NCBI GenBank assembly: GCA_016282435.1 | Contig: JAEEKN010000380.1 | Span: 1 to 47,936, forward strand | DNA: 47,936 bases | Direction: 5' to 3' | DNA from: Lachnospiraceae bacterium | GTDB lineage: Bacteria; Bacillota; Clostridia; Lachnospirales; Lachnospiraceae | In this document: one piece after another, positions 6,252 to 41,072 of the stretch | How the letters are laid out: every line of letters begins with the position of its first letter | How positions within the stretch are numbered: position 1 is the first letter of the stretch | Notes under the pieces: generated by a model | Told to the model about the DNA's origin: nothing | The model's database searches: none | Seen by the model: only the letters and a program-made list of their open reading frames with translations | Program-made: the position numbers and the translations under genes

Positions 6252-6256
6252 CGGTA

Positions 6257-6329
6257 CAGGGGCAGTAGGATTCGAACCCACGACCTGCGGTTTTGGAGAC
6301 CGTTATTCTACCAGCTGAACTATACCCCT
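6257..6329 (-). tRNA. trnW: tRNA-Trp (anticodon CCA)
   Basis: Minus-strand 73-mer: AGGGGTATAGTTCAGCTGGTAGAATAACGGTCTCCAAAACCGCAGGTCGTGGGTTCGAATCCTACTGCCCCTG. It folds by hand into a cloverleaf: 7-bp acceptor AGGGGTA/TGCCCCT, D arm GTTC/GAAT, anticodon stem CGGT/ACCG with loop CTCCAAA, and T arm GTGGG-TTCGAAT-CCTAC. The 3' CCA is not encoded. Close to the E. coli tRNA-Trp sequence as I recall it. Confidence 0.93.
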
Positions 6330-6384
6330 AGAAACAAGCACTTATGTATAATACTACAAAAAATGCCTGTTGTCAACAAAAATT

Positions 6385-26005: not shown

Positions 26006-27280
26006 ATGGAATATAGACCTAGAATTATAGACAATATATTAAAAAGAAAACTCGCCGGTATAGGAGCAGTGCTTATAGAAGGACCAAAACTATGCGGAAA
26101 AACGACATCGGCGGAACATATTGCGGAGAGTATTCTTTATATGGCAAAACCGGATGAGATGGAACAAAACATTAAGATAGCTGATTTAAAGCCAAGTTTG
26201 CTTCTTGACGGAAACACTCCGAGACTGATAGATGAATGGCAGGCTGCTCCAAAACTTTGGGATGCAGTAAGATTTGAAGTAGATCATCGAGGCAAAGTCG
26301 GACAGTTTATCCTGACCGGGTCAGCTGTACCTGCTAATCGCGATGACATATTTCATTCGGGCACAGGAAGAGTGGCTTGGTTAAAGATGAGAACAATGAG
26401 CCTTTTTGAGTCCGGTGAATCAGATGGATCAGTCAGCATGGCAGATCTGTTTTCAGGAGATAAAGATATAACTGCAAAGAATCCGATAGATGATATAGAA
26501 AACATAGCTTATCTTGTTGCCAGGGGTGGATGGCCTACTACACTTGAACTCGAGAAAGATCTGGCATTAGAGCATGTCTATGATTATATAAAGGCGGTCG
26601 AGGAAATTGATATATCAAGGGTAGACAATGTAAAAAGAGATAGTGAAAGAGCAAAGACTTTAATGAAAGTATATGCAAGATGCCAGGGTAATCAGGTAAC
26701 GGTTGAAGCAATAAAACAGGATATGCTAGCCAATGATTCTGACAGACTTGATACGGATACTGTTTTTTCATATATAAATGCATTAAAAAAGATATTTGTT
26801 ATAGAAGATATGCCGGCATGGAATCCAAATATAAGATCCAAAACAGCAATCCGTACATCAGATACCAGATATTTTACGGATCCATCCATAGCGGTAGCAG
26901 CGTTAGGATTAGGACCTAAGGATCTTGTATATGACCTGAAGACATTCGGTTTTATATTTGAGACGATGTGTGTACGTGACCTAAGAGTCTATGCAGATTC
27001 CTTGAATGGTCAAATATACCATTACAGAGATAAATCTGGTTTGGAATGTGATGCAGTAATTCATCTACGTGACGGAAAATATGGACTTATAGAGATAAAA
27101 CTGGGCGGAGATGATAGTATAGAGCATGGTGCAACCACACTTAAGGCATTGAAAAATAAAATTGATACAGATAAAATGAACCCTCCTTCGTTTTTAATGG
27201 TACTTGTAGGTAAAGGAACATATGCTTACAGGAGAGAGGATGGTGTATATGTGGTGCCGGTAGGTTGTTTGAGGGACTGA
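26006..27280 (+). CDS. AAA+ ATPase of the AAA_14/DUF4143 type
   Basis: Walker A GPKLCGKTT, Walker B-like RLIDEWQ, FILTGSA and RTMSLFE blocks, as in the widespread DUF4143 ATPases. ATG at 26006 is preferred over the track start at 25973. Confidence 0.75.
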   Translation: MEYRPRIIDNILKRKLAGIGAVLIEGPKLCGKTTSAEHIAESILYMAKPDEMEQNIKIADLKPSLLLDGNTPRLIDEWQAAPKLWDAVRFEVDHRGKVGQFILTGSAVPANRDDIFHSGTGRVAWLKMRTMSLFESGESDGSVSMADLFSGDKDITAKNPIDDIENIAYLVARGGWPTTLELEKDLALEHVYDYIKAVEEIDISRVDNVKRDSERAKTLMKVYARCQGNQVTVEAIKQDMLANDSDRLDTDTVFSYINALKKIFVIEDMPAWNPNIRSKTAIRTSDTRYFTDPSIAVAALGLGPKDLVYDLKTFGFIFETMCVRDLRVYADSLNGQIYHYRDKSGLECDAVIHLRDGKYGLIEIKLGGDDSIEHGATTLKALKNKIDTDKMNPPSFLMVLVGKGTYAYRREDGVYVVPVGCLRD

Positions 27281-27308
27281 TTCAAATAAAAAGATGAGCG
27301 TAAATAAG

Positions 27309-27337
27309 AAGTCGGGAAAAATAATCTCGGCTTTTTT
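27309..27337 (+). terminator. Terminator between the convergent ATPase and XRE genes
   Basis: AAGTCGGG / CTCGGCTT stem (two G-U pairs) followed by TTTT. Confidence 0.45.
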
Positions 27338-27625
27338 CTATGCTTTTGCGGATTCCTTTAAGTCATTTATTAAAGCTTGTATATGTAGGACCTGATTTGT
27401 TGAAAGACCAGATACATCGACGGTCTGCTGGTCATTGAGACCAAGTAAGAAATCTGCACTCACAGAAAAAGTAGTGGCAATTTTGATAAGCATATCTATA
27501 GAAGGTTGTATATTGTTGTTTTCCCAGTTACTGATACACTGTTTGCTGACGTTTAATTTATGCCCAAATTCCACTTGATTGATACCAAGTGATTCGCGGA
27601 GATACTTGATTCTTTCACTAAACAT
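27338..27625 (-). CDS. XRE-family helix-turn-helix transcriptional regulator
   Basis: IKYLRESLGINQVEFGHKLNVSKQCISNWENNNIQPSIDMLIKIA is a canonical Cro/CI-type HTH. Confidence 0.85.
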   Translation of the reverse strand: MFSERIKYLRESLGINQVEFGHKLNVSKQCISNWENNNIQPSIDMLIKIATTFSVSADFLLGLNDQQTVDVSGLSTNQVLHIQALINDLKESAKA

Positions 27626-27673
27626 ATTATATTCCTCTGAGACAAATATTTGAATACAATTGTAAAAAATAAA

Positions 27674-27702
27674 TTGACACTGACAAAATACTATAGTATA
27701 CT
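27674..27702 (+). promoter_or_regulatory. Promoter of the PPC-repeat gene
   Basis: TTGACA (27674-27679), 17-nt spacer, TATACT (27697-27702). Confidence 0.55.
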
Positions 27703-27777
27703 GATATTTGACCCGAATCTTATGTGATAAATTGAGACATGATTTAGGTAGTATAATGATAATGGAGGATATTTGTC

Positions 27778-28260
27778 ATGAGAAAATTATCTTTAGTGTT
27801 TTTGGGAGTATTGGCATCAATGCTGCTTTTTATGATACCGAATAATAAGGTATCTGCAGACGACAATAATACTATTTTTAATGCAGTTGAGTTTACCAGT
27901 GAAAATCCTGCTACTGATGAACTTGAATCAGAGTCGGATATTGACTGGTTTAAATATACAGTAAATAGTAAAGGTACCATTTGTTTTTCTTTTATAAATA
28001 TGTCTGAAAAAGAAGCTCGATGGGATGTTACTATCTTTGATGAAAGTGGGCAGAATCAAATATGGAGCCAAAATACTGATTGGAGTGCTACATCTACTAT
28101 TTCTCCCTTGTATAGTTTTGCTAATGGAACTGTATTAACTTTTAGAATAAAAGATTGTAGTTCTGCAGAAGGATTAAGGTATCAATTATCTGCTATGATT
28201 GATGAGACAGGGGCTTGGTCTGAGGAGGATAATGGCAGTTATTTAAAGCAACTACTTTGA
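27778..28260 (+). CDS. Secreted PPC-like repeat protein, zero-frame product (signal peptide + module 1)
   Basis: GGAGG lies 9 nt before the ATG. Signal peptide MRKLSLVFLGVLASMLLFMIPNNKVSADD. One pre-peptidase-C-terminal-like module (SDIDWFKYTV...RWDVTIFDESG...TFRIKDCSS...YQLSA). Ends at TGA three codons after a T_TTA_AAG heptamer. Confidence 0.75.
   Translation: MRKLSLVFLGVLASMLLFMIPNNKVSADDNNTIFNAVEFTSENPATDELESESDIDWFKYTVNSKGTICFSFINMSEKEARWDVTIFDESGQNQIWSQNTDWSATSTISPLYSFANGTVLTFRIKDCSSAEGLRYQLSAMIDETGAWSEEDNGSYLKQLL
28242..28248 (+). other. X_XXY_YYZ slippery heptamer T_TTA_AAG at the junction of the two PPC-repeat ORFs
   Basis: Zero frame reads TAT TTA AAG CAA CTA CTT TGA. The -1 frame reads TTT AAA GCA ACT ACT TTG ACG and continues into ORF 28257-29222. 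Confidence 0.5.
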
Positions 28261-29222
28261 CGGATAAAAAGCCTCTTTTAGGTATAATTAATAGCGATTC
28301 AGAGGTTGACTGGTATAAATATACTGTTAATAGCACAAATCCATTTAAAATAGTTTTAGATAACATGAGTGAAAGTGATTTGAGATGGCGCTTTAGTATA
28401 TATGATAATGATGGATCTACATTACTTTGGGATAAGAATACAGATTGGTCTGTAGCATCAACCGCCTCATGTAATTTGATGTATGAAAAAGGTCATGAGT
28501 TATATATAAAAATAAATAATTGTAGCTCGTCCGAGAATAAAATATATCAAATAAAAATTATCATTGATAATAGTACTGGATGGGCAAAGGAAGATAATGG
28601 ATCTTCTGAGAAGGCATATAAGATTGATAGTACAAGTGATATAAAGGAATTCCTTGGACCCAATAATGATGTTGATTGGTATGTGTATTCTGCTAAGAAA
28701 AATGAAAAGATTGCTTTTGAGTTTTCAAATACTGAATCAGCTGATGGGCGATGGAATTTACGCTTTTATGAGGGGAATGTTGATAAAGTAATTGACGAAA
28801 CTAACCTTGATTGGAATGAATTTTCTTATAAATATGAGATTAATGCCACAAGAGGAACCCGGTATTATATATGTGTAAGTGACTGTTCTAGTTCTTATGA
28901 TAAAGTATATAAGTTGAGTGTTAGGGATTCTGTAGAACATACTTCGAAAGATAATGTAGAATCAGGTTCAGATGATGGTCAGGGTATCACATCACCATAT
29001 TCCATTCTTGCAGGTACAAATGTTGTAGTTGGTAAAGCAGATGCCGGCGCAAAGGTTAGTGTTAAATATGGAAAGAAGACCTATACAGCAACGGCGAATT
29101 CAGAGGGCATTTATCGTGTAAAGACAGCAAAGCTTAAGAAGGGAAAGAGTGTAACCATCTGGCAGACTGTTAATAAGCAGGATTCTGAGAAAGTGACCGT
29201 TAAGGTTGTTAACAAGTATTAA
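28257..29222 (+). CDS. Continuation of the PPC-like repeat protein (-1 frame): modules 2 and 3 plus a C-terminal Ig-like domain; not an independent gene
   Basis: No SD precedes the TTG at 28257, and there is no signal peptide. This frame is open from 28233. Two further modules (SEVDWYKYTV..., NDVDWYVYSA...) are homologous to module 1. Confidence 0.7.
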   Translation: MTDKKPLLGIINSDSEVDWYKYTVNSTNPFKIVLDNMSESDLRWRFSIYDNDGSTLLWDKNTDWSVASTASCNLMYEKGHELYIKINNCSSSENKIYQIKIIIDNSTGWAKEDNGSSEKAYKIDSTSDIKEFLGPNNDVDWYVYSAKKNEKIAFEFSNTESADGRWNLRFYEGNVDKVIDETNLDWNEFSYKYEINATRGTRYYICVSDCSSSYDKVYKLSVRDSVEHTSKDNVESGSDDGQGITSPYSILAGTNVVVGKADAGAKVSVKYGKKTYTATANSEGIYRVKTAKLKKGKSVTIWQTVNKQDSEKVTVKVVNKY

Positions 29223-29279
29223 TTAAAGAAGGCGTCCTATATTCTAGGTTCCTAGTGGGGGACTTTTGGAAAAAGAATT

Positions 29280-29330
29280 GGACATACCATTTGTTTTGAT
29301 ATCGTGGCGAATGGTATGTCCATTTATTTT
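29280..29330 (+). terminator. Rho-independent terminator after the PPC-repeat gene
   Basis: 12-bp stem GGACATACCATT (29280-29291) / AATGGTATGTCC (29310-29321) followed by ATTTATTTT. Confidence 0.75.
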
Positions 29331-29344
29331 GGATTCCTAACGTG

Positions 29345-29379
29345 AATAGGAAAGAAAATAGGGGTCTTCCTATTTTTTT
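29345..29379 (+). terminator. Second hairpin with a T-run
   Basis: AATAGGAA (29345-29352) / TTCCTATT (29367-29374) followed by TTTTT. Confidence 0.5.
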
Positions 29380-29520
29380 CCTGTAAGATAATAAACTGCC
29401 AGTGCGGTTCTGTGTGACAGGTCTTCAGCTACCACTTTTATGATGTCAAGTTTTCTGCCGGTATAGTCTTAAGCATCAAATCCGTATGAGAGATTATGTA
29501 CAGGCTAAGAAGAATCATAC
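29370..29520 (-). pseudogene. Relic of the 3' end of a LuxR/NarL-type response-regulator gene (paralogue of 36342-37028)
   Basis: The minus strand translates to ...DYTGRKLDIIKVVAEDLSHRTALAVYYLTGKK*, versus DYTDRELDIIKAVAEGLS[...]KEDLSHRTALAVYYLTGKK* in the intact gene. The HTH core is missing. In-frame TAA and TAG codons lie just upstream. The 60 nt at 29460-29519 match 36792-36851 at 46/60 positions (hand alignment). Confidence 0.75.
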
Positions 29521-29522
29521 TA

Positions 29523-32762: not shown

Positions 32763-32763
32763 G

Positions 32764-33891
32764 ATGATTAGATACTTGATTAAAAACAATTTCAAAATAA
32801 TGTTCAGAAGTGCCACGAACATTCTTATCCTGACATTAGCTCCCATAGTGGTAAGTGCAGTGCTTATAAGTGCTTTTTCTGCCATAATGGAGAAGTATCA
32901 GGAAACTGGCAACTTTAAGGTTGGATACAGTTATAACAGCGAGGAGACTCCGGCGGCAGTTATTGACGGGATAAGGGCTATTGCCGAAGAGCAGGGAATC
33001 TCATTTGTAGAATATAAAAATACGGAACCTAAAGATGCATTAGAAGATGATAAGCTTGCCGGTTTTGTGGATTTTGGAAAAGAAAGCTATACAGTATACA
33101 AAACGGATGAAGCTGAGGCGGAAAACCAACTTTTGGAATATATTCTTCATGCTTATTACGAGAACATGTCCATGGCAGTTTCGGGACAGATGGGACATGA
33201 GTCACAGCAGACTGCGGCTACAAAAGAAAGTGCCGGAGAAACGGGTGCGGAAAAAATACAGGTCCTGACCGGAGATTTCATGCCAGCGGTAGATTCTACA
33301 GATTATTACGGTATTATATATCTTGTATATTTTGGCTGGTGCTGTATAGTTTGCGGAGCGGGACTCTTTAACGCAGAGAAAAAATACGGCATAGAAAAAA
33401 GAGAGATGATGTCGGGAATATCGGAGCTTAAGGCCTATCTTTCCAAATTTGTTCCTTTAGCAGCTGTGACATGTGCAGGACTTTCAATCTACGGGGTCGC
33501 ATCGGTCGTAATATTTGGAGTTAACTGGGGAAATGCTTTTCTGTCAATCCTTATCATCATATTGGGGATAATGGCCGCTACAGCGTTGGGACTTATGGTG
33601 TATTCTCTGTGTGACAACATGGTAGTGACAGTAATAGTAGTGTTTATGCTGGTATGGTACTGGGGTTTTTCGGGAGGAAGCTTTGAAACATATATGTTCT
33701 CACAAATGCCTCAAATTTTGAAATCCCTCTCACCTATCTACTACGAAAACAGAGCTCTGATAGAGCTTTCATGTATGGGCAGTACAGATTATGTTATAAA
33801 AAGCATTGCTGTTTCAGGGGGTATGACGGTATTATTCTCAGGAATAGCGGTTTTGGTAAGCACTTTAAGAAGGAGAGGTGGAAAATCATGA
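32764..33891 (+). CDS. ABC-2 type permease 1
   Basis: N-terminal TM helix, a large external loop, and a C-terminal cluster of TM helices. Starts 1 nt after the ATPase stop. Confidence 0.8.
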   Translation: MIRYLIKNNFKIMFRSATNILILTLAPIVVSAVLISAFSAIMEKYQETGNFKVGYSYNSEETPAAVIDGIRAIAEEQGISFVEYKNTEPKDALEDDKLAGFVDFGKESYTVYKTDEAEAENQLLEYILHAYYENMSMAVSGQMGHESQQTAATKESAGETGAEKIQVLTGDFMPAVDSTDYYGIIYLVYFGWCCIVCGAGLFNAEKKYGIEKREMMSGISELKAYLSKFVPLAAVTCAGLSIYGVASVVIFGVNWGNAFLSILIIILGIMAATALGLMVYSLCDNMVVTVIVVFMLVWYWGFSGGSFETYMFSQMPQILKSLSPIYYENRALIELSCMGSTDYVIKSIAVSGGMTVLFSGIAVLVSTLRRRGGKS

Positions 33892-36341: not shown

Positions 36342-37028
36342 ATGGATAAAATCAAAGTAATAATAGCTGATGACAGTGATTTTGTACGTGACGGAATGAA
36401 GATCATCCTCGATGTGGATGATGATTTTGAGGTCATCGGCACTGCGTCGAACGGTCGTGAGGCGATAGAACTGGCAGAAAAACAGAAGCCTGATGTATTT
36501 CTGATGGATATCCAGATGCCGGAAATGGACGGTATAGATGCAACAAAATATATAGTAGAACACGATCTGGGCAAAGTACTGATACTTACCACCTTTGATG
36601 ATGACGACCTGGTAAAGAGAGCACTGAAAAACGGGGCAAAGGGGTATCTTATAAAAAACCATACCCCCGAACACTTAAAACAAATGATAAAATCCGTATA
36701 TAACGGAACAGGGGTAATGGATGAAAACATACTTAATGCGCTGACAAAACTCACTGTTTCCGGTGAAAAGGCAACTGACGCAAGCGATCAGGCGGATTCT
36801 TCGAAGCTGGTACGTAATCTCGCAGACGGATTCGACGCATCAGACTATACCGACAGGGAACTAGATATCATAAAAGCCGTAGCAGAAGGACTGTCAAACA
36901 AGCAGATAGCGGAAAAACTGTACATATCCGAGGGAACTGTTAAGAATTACATAACCAACATTCTCTCTAAAGAAGACTTGTCACACAGGACTGCACTGGC
37001 AGTTTATTATCTCACGGGGAAAAAATAA
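36342..37028 (+). CDS. LuxR/NarL-family response regulator
   Basis: Receiver motifs (VIIADDSDFV, DVFLMDIQMPEMDG, ILTTF, KGYLIK) plus the LuxR HTH (LSNKQIAEKLYISEGTVKNYITNIL), joined by an unusually long linker. Confidence 0.9.
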   Translation: MDKIKVIIADDSDFVRDGMKIILDVDDDFEVIGTASNGREAIELAEKQKPDVFLMDIQMPEMDGIDATKYIVEHDLGKVLILTTFDDDDLVKRALKNGAKGYLIKNHTPEHLKQMIKSVYNGTGVMDENILNALTKLTVSGEKATDASDQADSSKLVRNLADGFDASDYTDRELDIIKAVAEGLSNKQIAEKLYISEGTVKNYITNILSKEDLSHRTALAVYYLTGKK

Positions 37029-39644: not shown

Positions 39645-41072
39645 ATGTTCAGGTGTGATTATAAGAAACTTTGCCTAGCTTTTAACTGTTTTCATGATGT
39701 TCAAGTGGATGACATGCCTGAGTATGGGGACTATGTTCTTATCGAATTAAAGGACGGACGCCATACAGCAGGATGCTGGTATCCGAAAGATGATGAGGAG
39801 ACTGTATCAGGAAGCTTCAGTCGGGACAGTTTTGACTCCGTTGACGTTGGGGAAGTATCGAAATGGCAGCCACTTAACGGATATGACCTTACAGGATCGC
39901 TGGAGAAGGAGAATATCAATCGAATAATTCTGGGATCCGATGAAGATGACCCTTATATTGTCGAGATCAGGGATTTTAAGTCATTTAAGGATGGAGATTT
40001 CCCCAAAAACAAACAATTCTGCCTCCTGATCTTAATTGACGGAACTTTGGCAGCAGGAAGGTGGAATAAGCTGGGAGAAGATGACGGACAGTTTATTTAT
40101 GCATCAGCTCTGGCATCCCACAGTATGAATAAGGTTTGGGCATGGACTCCATTAAGTTCCGATGAAATATTTGAGGAGGAAGAAGAAAAAGAAAGAGAGC
40201 GCTTAGCCGAGGAGGAACTAAACAAACATCCTACGGCCGATCCCGAGAAATTCAAATACGGAACGGATATAAATGCTTATTATGAAAAGGCTTTGGAAAA
40301 ACTGCGTGAGGAATATCCCTGGGCAACTCTTGCACAGATGAAAAAGAAAACGCCATATGTGATCGTGCCTCGCCACGGACAGTATATTTTCGGAAAAGAC
40401 TGTGGGACGTATATGGGACAGAATGTAGTCAGGGAATGGATTGACGGCAGTACTGCCGATGAATTTGTTGATTTCCTGCGTGAGTACACCCGGGAAAAGG
40501 TGAAGAATTCCGATCCTGTAGTGAAATTCAAATACGGAACTGAAATTAAAGTATATTTTGAAAAAGCATACGAAAAAGTCAAAAAGGATTATCGATGGTT
40601 TAATAAGGAAATGGCAGATAATTACTGCCAATATGCGATAATAGAGGTAGACGGCGAACCGGAATTCGCCAGGAAATTTAATAACGATAAAGAATTCCAC
40701 GTGTACGATTGTGAAAGTGCTGACGGATTATTGAAAAATATGGAGTATGAATTTCAGGAAGCGGCACTTAAGGAAAATCCTGTTGTGGCAGAGTATGCGG
40801 TACCGTTTGGAAGGGTTGACGCGAACGGATGGTGTCTGGAAAAATATATCGTATATAAGCTTAAGTCAGGTGATTACAAGGTATTTGTACAGGCCGGAGA
40901 CAGGACTGCAGGAGGCAGCAGAGAGTTCTTTATTACACCTGACTGCTTTGAAGCAAAAACATATGATGAGTTTTTGGACCGTTATCTGGAAATCGTTCCG
41001 GGTAGTTCATTTGGACTCAATAAACAGGATCTTGCTCCCGATATGGAACTGAAAAAATTCTTTGGATATTAA
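39645..41072 (+). CDS. Hypothetical cytoplasmic protein built from two internally duplicated module pairs
   Basis: Good RBS (GGAGCGGAG). Duplicated blocks: YVLIELKDGRHTAGCWYP...KWQPL versus CLLILIDGTLAAGRWNK...WAWTPL, and KFKYGTDINAYYEKALEKLREEYPW versus KFKYGTEIKVYFEKAYEKVKKDYRW. No known motif recognised. Confidence 0.7.
   Translation: MFRCDYKKLCLAFNCFHDVQVDDMPEYGDYVLIELKDGRHTAGCWYPKDDEETVSGSFSRDSFDSVDVGEVSKWQPLNGYDLTGSLEKENINRIILGSDEDDPYIVEIRDFKSFKDGDFPKNKQFCLLILIDGTLAAGRWNKLGEDDGQFIYASALASHSMNKVWAWTPLSSDEIFEEEEEKERERLAEEELNKHPTADPEKFKYGTDINAYYEKALEKLREEYPWATLAQMKKKTPYVIVPRHGQYIFGKDCGTYMGQNVVREWIDGSTADEFVDFLREYTREKVKNSDPVVKFKYGTEIKVYFEKAYEKVKKDYRWFNKEMADNYCQYAIIEVDGEPEFARKFNNDKEFHVYDCESADGLLKNMEYEFQEAALKENPVVAEYAVPFGRVDANGWCLEKYIVYKLKSGDYKVFVQAGDRTAGGSREFFITPDCFEAKTYDEFLDRYLEIVPGSSFGLNKQDLAPDMELKKFFGY

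What the first reader, a model, noticed from the sequence alone, without database searches (positions are those of the whole stretch)
28222..28260. Canonical -1 slippery heptamer T_TTA_AAG exactly at the junction of a split secreted repeat protein
Seen in the sequence:
- ORF 27778-28260 carries the only signal peptide and one repeat module.
- ORF 28257-29222 has no SD and no signal peptide, and holds two more copies of the same module. It lies in the -1 frame, which is already open from 28233.
- The zero frame reads TAT TTA AAG CAA CTA CTT TGA, so T_TTA_AAG (28242-28248) fits X_XXY_YYZ. The zero-frame stop comes three codons later.
- A -1 slip gives ...EEDNGSYLKATTLTDKKPLLGIINSDSEVDWYKY.... 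It places 23 residues between EDNGS and DWY, the same as the module 2/3 linker (EDNGSSEKAYKIDSTSDIKEFLGPNNDVDWYVY). It also reproduces that linker's K-A dipeptide at the slip point.
- GAGGAGGA (28222-28229) lies 12 nt upstream of the heptamer.

Established knowledge:
- X_XXA_AAG heptamers are the most slippage-prone class in bacteria (dnaX, IS3-family elements).
- In dnaX an upstream SD-like element stimulates the shift.

Inference:
- This is either programmed frameshifting, giving a 160-aa one-module form and a ~480-aa three-module form, or a one-base loss in an A-run (TTA AAA GCA to TTA AAG CA).
- A sequencing error would look the same. The sequence alone cannot separate these options.
- I see no strong downstream stem-loop.
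Basis: partly seen in the sequence, partly recalled or inferred. Interest (0 to 1): 0.65.

Follow-up and report, generated by a model that had tools for sequence, protein, structure and literature searches.

The report
One-base deletion splits a secreted gene
The "frameshift site" is a strain-specific one-base deletion that breaks a normally uninterrupted gene for a secreted binding protein of a ruminant-gut bacterium; it happens to lie on a slippery sequence, but nothing indicates an evolved, programmed frameshift.

Summary
Every relative found is one uninterrupted gene (482 aa at 83% identity, 480 aa at 67%, about 20 more distant). In the DNA alignment the window is exactly one base short after 28248: window AAG-CA, relatives AAG GCA or AAA TCA. 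That is the only frame-breaking indel in the gene. The heptamer is not conserved (T_ATA_AAG in one orthologue). In another orthologue it sits harmlessly in frame (T_TTA_AAA). The SD-like run encodes the conserved Glu-Glu-Asp of a domain linker. Downstream RNA folds no better than shuffles. The same deletion occurs in a separately assembled metagenome contig. The window has no other broken gene, so an assembly error is unlikely, though no reads were available. The read-through product is three modules homologous to clostridial collagenase collagen-binding domains plus a conserved C-terminal Ig-like domain. The locus is accessory and is missing in a sister strain. The most likely reading is a recent pseudogene. 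Low-level accidental slippage that would restore the ancestral protein is possible but untested.

The parts
27338..27625 (-). Divergently transcribed XRE-type HTH regulator gene (95 aa). Together with the repeat-protein gene it forms a 2.2-kb accessory cassette.
   Evidence: Pfam HTH_3 E=5e-14. Cassette 27283-29522 is absent in a sister strain: an X26 contig joins 27282 to 29523.
27674..27702 (+). Promoter-like site TTGACA-17-TATACT for the repeat-protein gene
   Evidence: 11 of 12 consensus matches, the best site in the region. This is a consensus match only.
27764..27769 (+). Shine-Dalgarno GGAGGA; its GGAGG core ends 9 nt before the ATG at 27778
   Evidence: Read directly from the sequence.
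27778..28260 (+). ORF1 (zero frame, 160 aa): signal peptide (27778-27858), CBD-like module 1 and the start of the module-2 linker; ends at TGA 28258-28260
   Evidence: Aligns to residues 1-157 of the contiguous orthologues.
28222..28229 (+). SD-like GAGGAGGA, 12 nt upstream of the heptamer; it encodes the conserved Glu-Glu-Asp of the inter-module linker
   Evidence: Orthologues have GAGGAAGA, GATGAGGA and GACGAGGA at the same codons.
28242..28248 (+). T_TTA_AAG heptamer in the zero frame
   Evidence: Not conserved: L001 has T_TTA_AAA in a contiguous frame, and L002/L003 have T_ATA_AAG.
28248..28249 (+). Site of the one-base deletion relative to all relatives (window AAG-CA; relatives AAG GCA, AAA TCA, AAA GCT, AAA GCC)
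   Evidence: DNA alignment, the only frame-breaking gap in the gene. An X7 contig has 101 nt where the window has 100. Codon view. Contig L013 ends exactly at 28248.
28233..29222 (+). -1 frame open reading stretch (ORF2 as called: 28257-29222). It holds the rest of the module-2 linker, module 2 (to about 28580), module 3 (about 28581-28931), a low-confidence spacer, and the C-terminal Big_6/Ig-like domain (about 28989-29219).
   Evidence: Pfam Big_6 E=2.9e-5, below the curated cut-off. ColG CBD profile hit E=3.5e-15. AF2 model pLDDT 84. Foldseek 5iku E=4e-13.
29280..29330 (+). Terminator-like hairpin GGACATACCATT...AATGGTATGTCC followed by ATTTATTTT
   Evidence: Fold of 29265-29345: -30.1 kcal/mol, z = -5.74, 0 of 200 shuffles as good. 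Missed by the simple terminator scan, probably because its loop limit is 3-8 nt.

Best explanation
The two ORFs are the halves of one gene that lost a single base in this strain's lineage. The loss lies at the Lys157/Ala158 codon boundary: AAG GCA or AAA GCA became AAG CA at 28248/28249. The intact gene encodes a Sec-secreted protein of about 481 aa. It has three tandem modules homologous to the collagen-binding domains of clostridial collagenases and a highly conserved C-terminal Ig-like domain. It is expressed as one transcription unit (promoter 27674-27702, SD, terminator hairpin 29280-29330) next to a divergent HTH regulator. With the deletion, standard translation gives a 160-aa secreted one-module fragment that lacks the C-terminal domain. 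ORF2 has no SD and no signal peptide and is not expected to be made on its own. The deletion fell inside a pre-existing TTTAAA(A/G) run, so the break coincides with a T_TTA_AAG heptamer. A small fraction of ribosomes may slip -1 there by accident and rebuild exactly the ancestral sequence (...SYLK-ATTL...). That would be adventitious, not programmed. Shown: ancestral contiguity, the single missing base, non-conservation of the heptamer, absence of a 3' structure, domain identity, and the accessory nature of the locus. Inferred: that the deletion is a real mutation rather than an error, that it is recent, and that any slippage is low.
For: (1) Contiguous relatives. P0001 is 482 aa, 83% identical and 100% covered, on a syntenic 23-kb contig. 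P0002 is 480 aa, 67% identical, on two contigs. P0004-P0006 are 500 aa. About 18 further relatives have two modules. (2) The DNA alignment shows one 1-nt gap in the window after 28248 and no other frame-breaking indel. A fourth relative (X7 contig) has 101 nt against 100 across 28158-28257. (3) The -1 reading aligns without a gap to all relatives and restores Ala158, which is at least 90% conserved in the 24-sequence alignment. All relatives have Lys-Ala or Lys-Ser there. (4) The junction lies inside a structural element, the CBD N-terminal linker, which aligns to EKENNDSSDKA of ColG. The fused model is confident across it, with pLDDT 92 for residues 151-160. (5) The heptamer is not conserved, the SD-like run is coding sequence for conserved E-E-D, and no downstream structure exists (z = -0.43). 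(6) The same deletion appears in a separately assembled metagenome contig that is 100% identical over 1,828 bp. A third assembly's contig (99.9% identical) stops exactly at 28248, as expected at an assembly-graph branch between alleles. (7) No other broken gene is seen in the 48-kb window. (8) dN/dS against L001 is 0.125 upstream, 0.143 for the downstream modules and 0.076 for the C-terminus, so the downstream frame was under purifying selection for nearly all of its history. (9) The locus is dispensable and variable. The cassette is absent in the X26 strain, the allele diverges in X15/X16, and L001 has different neighbours. (10) In E. coli, heptamers without stimulators shift only 2-10 times over a 0.055% background (PMC4066793).
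Against: No read-level data cross the junction, so an error in the underlying reads cannot be excluded. It is also unknown whether the two assemblies that carry the deletion used independent reads. U_UU.A_AA.G is among the more shift-prone bacterial heptamers. A strong GGAGG lies at a spacing (12 nt) that, from my own knowledge of dnaX and IS911 work, is stimulatory for -1 shifts, so real slippage could be higher than the stimulator-free E. coli figures. The downstream frame carries no second lesion, which fits continued expression as well as it fits recency.
Confidence: 0.8

Rival explanations
1. Sequencing or assembly artefact: the real genome has the extra base and the gene is intact.
For: A one-base loss next to a short run is the classic form of a consensus error. 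No reads or contigs from public runs cross the junction. Contig L013 ends exactly at the site, which could also reflect heterogeneous reads. The window and the JGI contig might derive from related or identical read sets.
Against: Two different assemblies (the 47,936-bp NCBI contig and a 1,828-bp JGI contig) agree base for base, including the deletion. The run is only A3/G1, which is not error-prone for short-read chemistry. The rest of the window shows no other split gene.
Confidence: 0.12
2. Programmed -1 ribosomal frameshifting maintained by selection. T_TTA_AAG plus the upstream SD-like GAGGAGGA would set a fixed ratio between a 160-aa one-module form and a 481-aa three-module form.
For: A shift-prone heptamer of the bacterial X_XXA_AAG class sits in the zero frame inside the 9-codon overlap. 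GGAGG lies 12 nt upstream. The zero-frame stop follows three codons later. The slip product is exactly the family consensus. The deletion allele is seen in more than one assembly. The downstream frame is undamaged.
Against: No orthologue or family member has the split; all are contiguous. The heptamer is absent in L002/L003 and sits in frame in a contiguous gene in L001. The SD-like run is explained by the conserved E-E-D codons. No 3' stimulator exists. No one-module family member lacking the C-terminal domain was found. The locus is dispensable.
Confidence: 0.05
3. Phase variation: a reversible on/off switch by slipped-strand mispairing at the run, with both alleles cycling in the population.
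For: Contig L013 ends exactly at the indel, which hints that two alleles coexist in one sample. The product is a secreted or surface binding protein from a variable accessory locus, the kind of gene that is often phase-variable.
Against: The tract is only TTT AAA G(G). Known contingency loci use homopolymers of about 7 or more bases, or multi-copy short repeats (established knowledge). No intact allele above 83% identity was found in the protein search.
Confidence: 0.03

Closest known systems
Ordinary frameshift pseudogene (single-base indel in a short run) in an accessory bacterial gene
   Same: One missing base relative to all contiguous orthologues. A premature stop follows three codons later. 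The downstream part lacks its own SD and signal peptide. The locus is dispensable and is absent in a sister strain.
   Different: The break happens to lie on a shift-prone heptamer with an SD-like run upstream, so it may be leakier than a typical frameshift mutation.
E. coli dnaX and IS3/IS911-family programmed -1 frameshift signals
   Same: An X_XXA_AAG-class heptamer in the zero frame, an SD-like element about 10-14 nt upstream, and a zero-frame stop shortly after.
   Different: There is no downstream stem-loop or pseudoknot. The heptamer and the two-frame layout are not conserved in orthologues. The upstream element is explained by conserved codons.
Adventitious or 'compensatory' frameshifting at indels (the herpesvirus thymidine kinase G-run mutants reviewed in PMC5009743; the pDEST17 A_AAA_AAA site, PMC1851650; tssM of Citrobacter rodentium by transcriptional slippage, PMC4256274)
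   Same: A DNA-level indel that could be partly corrected during expression because it lies in a slippery run, giving a little full-length product.
   Different: Here no product has been measured. The run is too short (A3, T3) for transcriptional slippage of the tssM type.
Collagen-binding domains (s3 segments) of clostridial collagenases ColG/ColH (PDB 5iku, 1nqd, 3jqw)
   Same: The three repeat modules match by profile (E=3.5e-15) and by fold (Foldseek E=4e-13). The match includes the N-terminal linker motif E-x-(E/D)-N-x-S-x-x-K-A and the D-x-(W/Y)-Y strand.
   Different: There is no collagenase catalytic domain or PKD domain. The modules have no hit to Pfam's PPC model at E<=1. A Big_6-like C-terminal domain is attached instead. 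The host is a ruminant-gut, Lachnospiraceae-like bacterium and the ligand is unknown.

Membership tests
Programmed -1 ribosomal frameshift site (dnaX / IS3 type) | X_XXY_YYZ heptamer in the zero frame within the overlap of the two ORFs | tested here: met
   T_TTA_AAG at 28242-28248; the overlap is 28233-28260.
Programmed -1 ribosomal frameshift site (dnaX / IS3 type) | Conservation of the heptamer and of the two-frame architecture among orthologues | tested here: not met
   All relatives are contiguous. L002/L003 have T_ATA_AAG and L001 has T_TTA_AAA in an unbroken frame.
Programmed -1 ribosomal frameshift site (dnaX / IS3 type) | Downstream stimulatory stem-loop or pseudoknot a few nt after the heptamer (frequent but not universal in bacteria) | tested here: not met
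   28249-28330: MFE -12.5 kcal/mol, z = -0.43, and 60 of 200 shuffles fold at least as well.
Programmed -1 ribosomal frameshift site (dnaX / IS3 type) | Upstream SD-like stimulator about 10-14 nt before the heptamer | tested here: inconclusive
   GAGGAGGA at 28222-28229 has the right spacing, but it encodes the conserved E-E-D and varies synonymously in orthologues.
Programmed -1 ribosomal frameshift site (dnaX / IS3 type) | Two protein products in a set ratio, dependent on the heptamer | not testable with these tools
   Needs a reporter assay, a Western blot or mass spectrometry.
Frameshift pseudogene (indel) | Orthologues have an uninterrupted frame and differ by a non-multiple-of-3 indel at the break | tested here: met
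   A single 1-nt gap after 28248 against L001, L002 and L003. The X7 contig has 101 nt against 100.
Frameshift pseudogene (indel) | The lesion is real in the DNA (read support or independent sequencing) | tested here: inconclusive
   A second assembly carries it. No reads cross the site in any accessible run, and the independence of the read sets is unknown.
Phase-variable contingency locus | Long homopolymer or short tandem repeat tract at the switch point | tested here: not met
   Only TTT AAA G at 28242-28248.
Collagenase-type collagen-binding domain (CBD / PPC superfamily) | Significant sequence-profile similarity to solved CBDs | tested here: met
   Profile A2 against PDB: 5iku_A E=3.5e-15, 1nqd_A 4.5e-8, 3jqw_A 1.2e-3. 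Residue alignment.
Collagenase-type collagen-binding domain (CBD / PPC superfamily) | Beta-sandwich fold matching CBD structures | tested here: met
   AF2 mean pLDDT 84, all-beta modules. The top Foldseek hit is 5iku at E=4e-13; TM-scores are low because the comparison is multi-domain.
Collagenase-type collagen-binding domain (CBD / PPC superfamily) | Match to Pfam PPC model (PF04151) | tested here: not met
   No PF04151 hit at E<=1. The only hit with an E-value below 0.01 is Big_6, at 24.7 bits against a cut-off of 27.6.
Collagenase-type collagen-binding domain (CBD / PPC superfamily) | Calcium-dependent binding of collagen | not testable with these tools
   Biochemical assay needed.

The most novel reading that the evidence does not exclude
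A newly born, lineage-specific recoding site. After the deletion, T_TTA_AAG plus the GGAGG 12 nt upstream would give enough -1 slippage for the strain to make both a short secreted one-module form and the full three-module protein. The deletion allele would then persist in ruminant-gut populations as a 'pseudo-pseudogene' rather than decaying.
Probability: 0.06. Interest if true: 0.55.

Novelty: already known. Interest (0 to 1): 0.15.

Why it matters
As it stands, this matters mainly for annotation. The two ORFs should be annotated as one frameshifted gene (a pseudogene, or 'frameshifted; internal stop'), not as two proteins and not as a recoding event. It also shows how a slippery heptamer with an SD-like run at a frame break can arise without selection. 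Short A/T runs favour both deletion and ribosome slippage, and the SD-like run here is coding sequence for acidic residues. If the small-probability reading were true, it would be a natural example of a frameshift signal at the moment of its origin, which would interest the recoding field. The gene family itself may be worth separate study as candidate adhesins or fibre- or host-matrix-binding proteins of the rumen. It combines secreted tandem collagenase-type binding modules with a strikingly conserved C-terminal domain.

Tried and rejected
- **Read and contig pile-ups across the junction.** Fifteen public runs were laid in four calls aimed at the junction. Near-identical fragments of the gene exist at about 3x word depth in X1, X3, X4, X6 and X18, but none crosses 28248. 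The two raw-read runs (X40, X41) and X31 gave no reads on the gene.
- **Collection scans.** The genome-contig scan and the metagenome-contig scan found only relatives at 37% identity or less, and neither found the window's own species. The viral contigs pattern scan for the junction, allowing 0-2 extra bases, found nothing.
- **L012 (Logan contig, 92% allele).** It seemed to read through the stop, but its last 25 nt match the window about 8.6 kb away on the other strand (~36885-36909). It is therefore a chimeric contig end and says nothing about the junction.
- **A suspected second broken gene at 32763-33770.** This was an artefact of my ORF filter. The ABC-2 permease is intact at 32764-33885.
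- **dN/dS upstream versus downstream.** It cannot separate 'recent pseudogene' from 'still expressed'.
- **Transcriptional slippage.** Rejected because the A3 and T3 runs are far shorter than known slippage tracts (own knowledge; compare PMC4256274).
- **Independent initiation of ORF2 at TTG 28257.** Rejected because there is no SD, and the product would lack a signal peptide and start inside a domain linker.
- **Window contig identity.** A look-up of the neighbouring AAA_14/DUF4143 protein, meant to identify the window's record, found nothing on record.

Full report
**1. Observation**

The region reads as the first-stage reader said.
- ORF1 (27778-28260, 160 aa) starts 9 nt after a GGAGG core. 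It opens with a typical signal-peptide segment (MRKLSLVFLGVLASMLLFMIPNNKVSA/DD).
- ORF2 (called from TTG 28257 to 29222, 321 aa) has no SD and no signal peptide. It lies in the -1 frame, which is open from 28233.
- The zero frame reads TAT TTA AAG CAA CTA CTT TGA. This places T_TTA_AAG at 28242-28248, with the stop three codons later.
- GAGGAGGA is at 28222-28229, 12 nt upstream of the heptamer.
- A -1 slip gives ...EEDNGSYLK-ATTLTDKKPLLG..., with the same 23-residue spacing as the module 2/3 linker.

In-frame slippery heptamers are ordinary in this window: 71 in about 13,800 codons of long ORFs, 11 of them X_XXA_AAG. One falling in a given 9-codon overlap by pure chance would be rare (about 0.7%), so the coincidence needs an explanation.

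**2. What relatives show**

A protein search with the -1 read-through product found only uninterrupted relatives.
- P0001: 482 aa, 83% identity, full coverage.
- P0002: 480 aa, 67% identity.
- P0004-P0006: three 500-aa proteins at 37-38% identity, one named only as a hypothetical protein of a Lachnospiraceae MAG.
- About 18 shorter relatives with two modules.

The fused reading aligns to P0001 and P0002 through the junction without any gap: window SYLKATTLTDKKPLLG, P0001 NYLKSSILTDKKPLLG, P0002 NYIKASVLTDKEPLLG. P0001 sits on a 23-kb contig (L001). Its upstream neighbours are the same AAA_14/DUF4143 ATPase gene and the same divergent HTH gene as in the window, so it is a positional orthologue.

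At the DNA level the window has one single-base gap, exactly after 28248. It is the only frame-breaking indel in the gene:
- window: TAT TTA AAG -CA ACT
- L001: TAT TTA AAA TCA AGC
- L002/L003: TAT ATA AAG GCA AGC

A fourth relative, a 448-bp contig in run X7, has 101 nt where the window has 100 between 28157 and 28258. More distant members have AAA GCT or AAA GCC, and the window's own module 2/3 linker has AAG GCA. Ala158, the first codon read after the putative slip, is at least 90% conserved in the 24-sequence alignment.

The ancestral gene was therefore contiguous. The window's lineage lost one base, either a G of AAG GCA or an A of AAA GCA.

**3. The 'frameshift signal' elements**

The heptamer is not conserved. 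L002/L003 have T_ATA_AAG, which is not slippery. L001 has T_TTA_AAA in frame within an unbroken gene. The TTTAAA run thus pre-dates the deletion and simply encodes Tyr-Leu-Lys in AT-rich codons.

The SD-like run is GAG GAG GAT. It encodes the Glu-Glu-Asp of the linker motif W-(S/A)-x-E-D-N, which recurs at each module boundary. Orthologues carry synonymous or near-synonymous variants: GAGGAAGA, GATGAGGA, GACGAGGA. There is no 3' stimulator.

The coincidence of break and heptamer is best explained by mutation. Short runs are where single-base losses occur, and the same runs are what ribosomes slip on.

**4. Real mutation or error?**

The window is a complete 47,936-bp NCBI contig. A separately assembled 1,828-bp contig carries both split ORFs and is 100% identical to window 27621-29448, deletion included. 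That contig is JGI 3300041004, also deposited as GCA_016648375.1.

A contig from a third assembly (GCA_016295205.1, 99.9% identical) ends exactly at 28248, the last base before the indel. I examined only a handful of contigs, so an end at exactly that base is unlikely by chance. It is what a de Bruijn graph branch between AAG|CA and AAG|GCA alleles would give. This is a hint only.

The window shows no other broken gene. A suspected one at 32.8-33.8 kb proved intact. I could not inspect reads: no contig or read from 15 public runs laid for this purpose crosses the junction. I therefore put a real deletion at about 0.8 and an artefact at about 0.12.

**5. What the gene is**

A profile of the family matches the collagen-binding domains of clostridial collagenases: ColG tandem CBD 5iku E = 3.5e-15, 1nqd 4.5e-8, ColH 3jqw 1.2e-3. 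The residue alignment pairs the inter-module linker AKEDNGSSEKA with ColG EKENNDSSDKA, and DVDWYVY with SRDYYSF.

The AlphaFold model of the read-through protein is confident (mean pLDDT 84). It shows three all-beta modules, and residues 151-160, which span the junction, average 92. A low-confidence spacer (residues 386-404) and a C-terminal beta domain follow. Its top fold match is again 5iku (E = 4e-13).

Pfam gives only a sub-threshold Big_6 hit for the C-terminal domain and no PPC hit.

The frame break therefore lies inside the N-terminal linker of module 2, not at a natural protein boundary. From established work on ColG, this linker belongs to the calcium-binding part of the domain (own knowledge, not tested here).

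The unit has a good promoter match (27674-27702) and a strong terminator-like hairpin (29280-29330, z = -5.7).

**6. Population context**

Many ruminant-gut metagenomes (sheep, cattle, goat) hold about half of the sampled words of the surrounding 10 kb but only about 10% of those of the gene.
- In run X26 a 7.9-kb contig joins 27282 directly to 29523, so the HTH regulator and the repeat gene are absent together.
- In X15/X16 a contig follows the window to about 28011 and then diverges.
- L001 has an extra 230-aa zinc-ribbon gene upstream and different genes downstream.

The gene is an accessory, fast-changing locus, where loss by frameshift is unsurprising.

dN/dS against L001 is equally low before and after the break: 0.125, 0.143 and 0.076. 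The downstream frame was thus real coding sequence for nearly all of its history, and the break is recent.

**7. Mechanism and likelihoods**

The most likely reading (0.8) is a recent one-base deletion that truncates the product to a 160-aa secreted one-module fragment.

U_UU.A_AA.G is among the shift-prone bacterial heptamers. In E. coli, however, heptamers without stimulators exceeded a 0.055% background only 2-10-fold, and the high values (up to 54%) needed a strong pseudoknot (PMC4066793). The upstream GGAGG might raise this somewhat.

A slip would recreate the exact ancestral protein, so the allele may be leaky. This is the 'compensatory' or adventitious category discussed in PMC5009743. 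It is inference and was not measured.

Selected, programmed frameshifting (0.05) fails the conservation test. Phase variation (0.03) fails for lack of a long repeat tract.

**8. Verdict**

This is an ordinary frameshifted accessory gene, so interest is low (0.15).

Noticed in passing
window 28989-29219 (residues ~405-481 of the read-through protein): The C-terminal ~75-aa Big_6-like domain is almost invariant across family members whose N-terminal modules are only 35-40% identical (PYSILAGTNVVVGKADxGAKVSVKYGKKTYTATA...VKVVNKY). Many metagenomes hold near-identical DNA for it joined to different upstream sequences (loose ends before 28994 in X1 and X3). It looks like a shared, possibly recombining anchoring or sorting domain.
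   Followed up: partly
window 27283-29522: The HTH regulator gene and the repeat-protein gene form a 2.2-kb cassette that is cleanly absent in a sister strain. An X26 contig joins 27282 to 29523 with the 8-nt filler TTTTTACT.
   Followed up: partly
L001 1930-2622 versus window 27626-27777: The orthologous locus L001 has an extra 230-aa zinc-ribbon protein gene between the HTH gene and the repeat-protein gene. It also has different downstream genes: a methyltransferase, AIRC, Ni_insertion and DUF4139, in place of the window's TetR plus ABC transporter.
   Followed up: no
L013 (GCA_016295205.1 JAEEGJ010681346.1), equal to window 27203-28248: A 99.9%-identical metagenome contig terminates exactly at the last base before the indel. 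This suggests an assembly-graph branch, meaning two alleles in that sample.
   Followed up: partly
L012 tail; window ~36885-36909 (- strand): The last 25 nt of Logan contig L012 match a site about 8.6 kb away on the opposite strand of the window. This is probably a chimeric contig end, though a rearrangement is not excluded.
   Followed up: partly
window 29280-29330: A very stable 12-bp perfect inverted repeat with an 18-nt loop, followed by a T-rich tail (z = -5.7). It acts as the likely terminator, and the simple terminator scan missed it.
   Followed up: yes
window 6256-6330 (-): tRNA-Trp (CCA) is the only tRNA gene in the window. No tRNA-Lys gene is present, so the anticodon set relevant to AAG slippage cannot be judged.
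   Followed up: no
window 40173 and 40209: Two further copies of GAGGAGGA lie 36 nt apart on the + strand, inside the 39645-41072 ORF.
   Followed up: no
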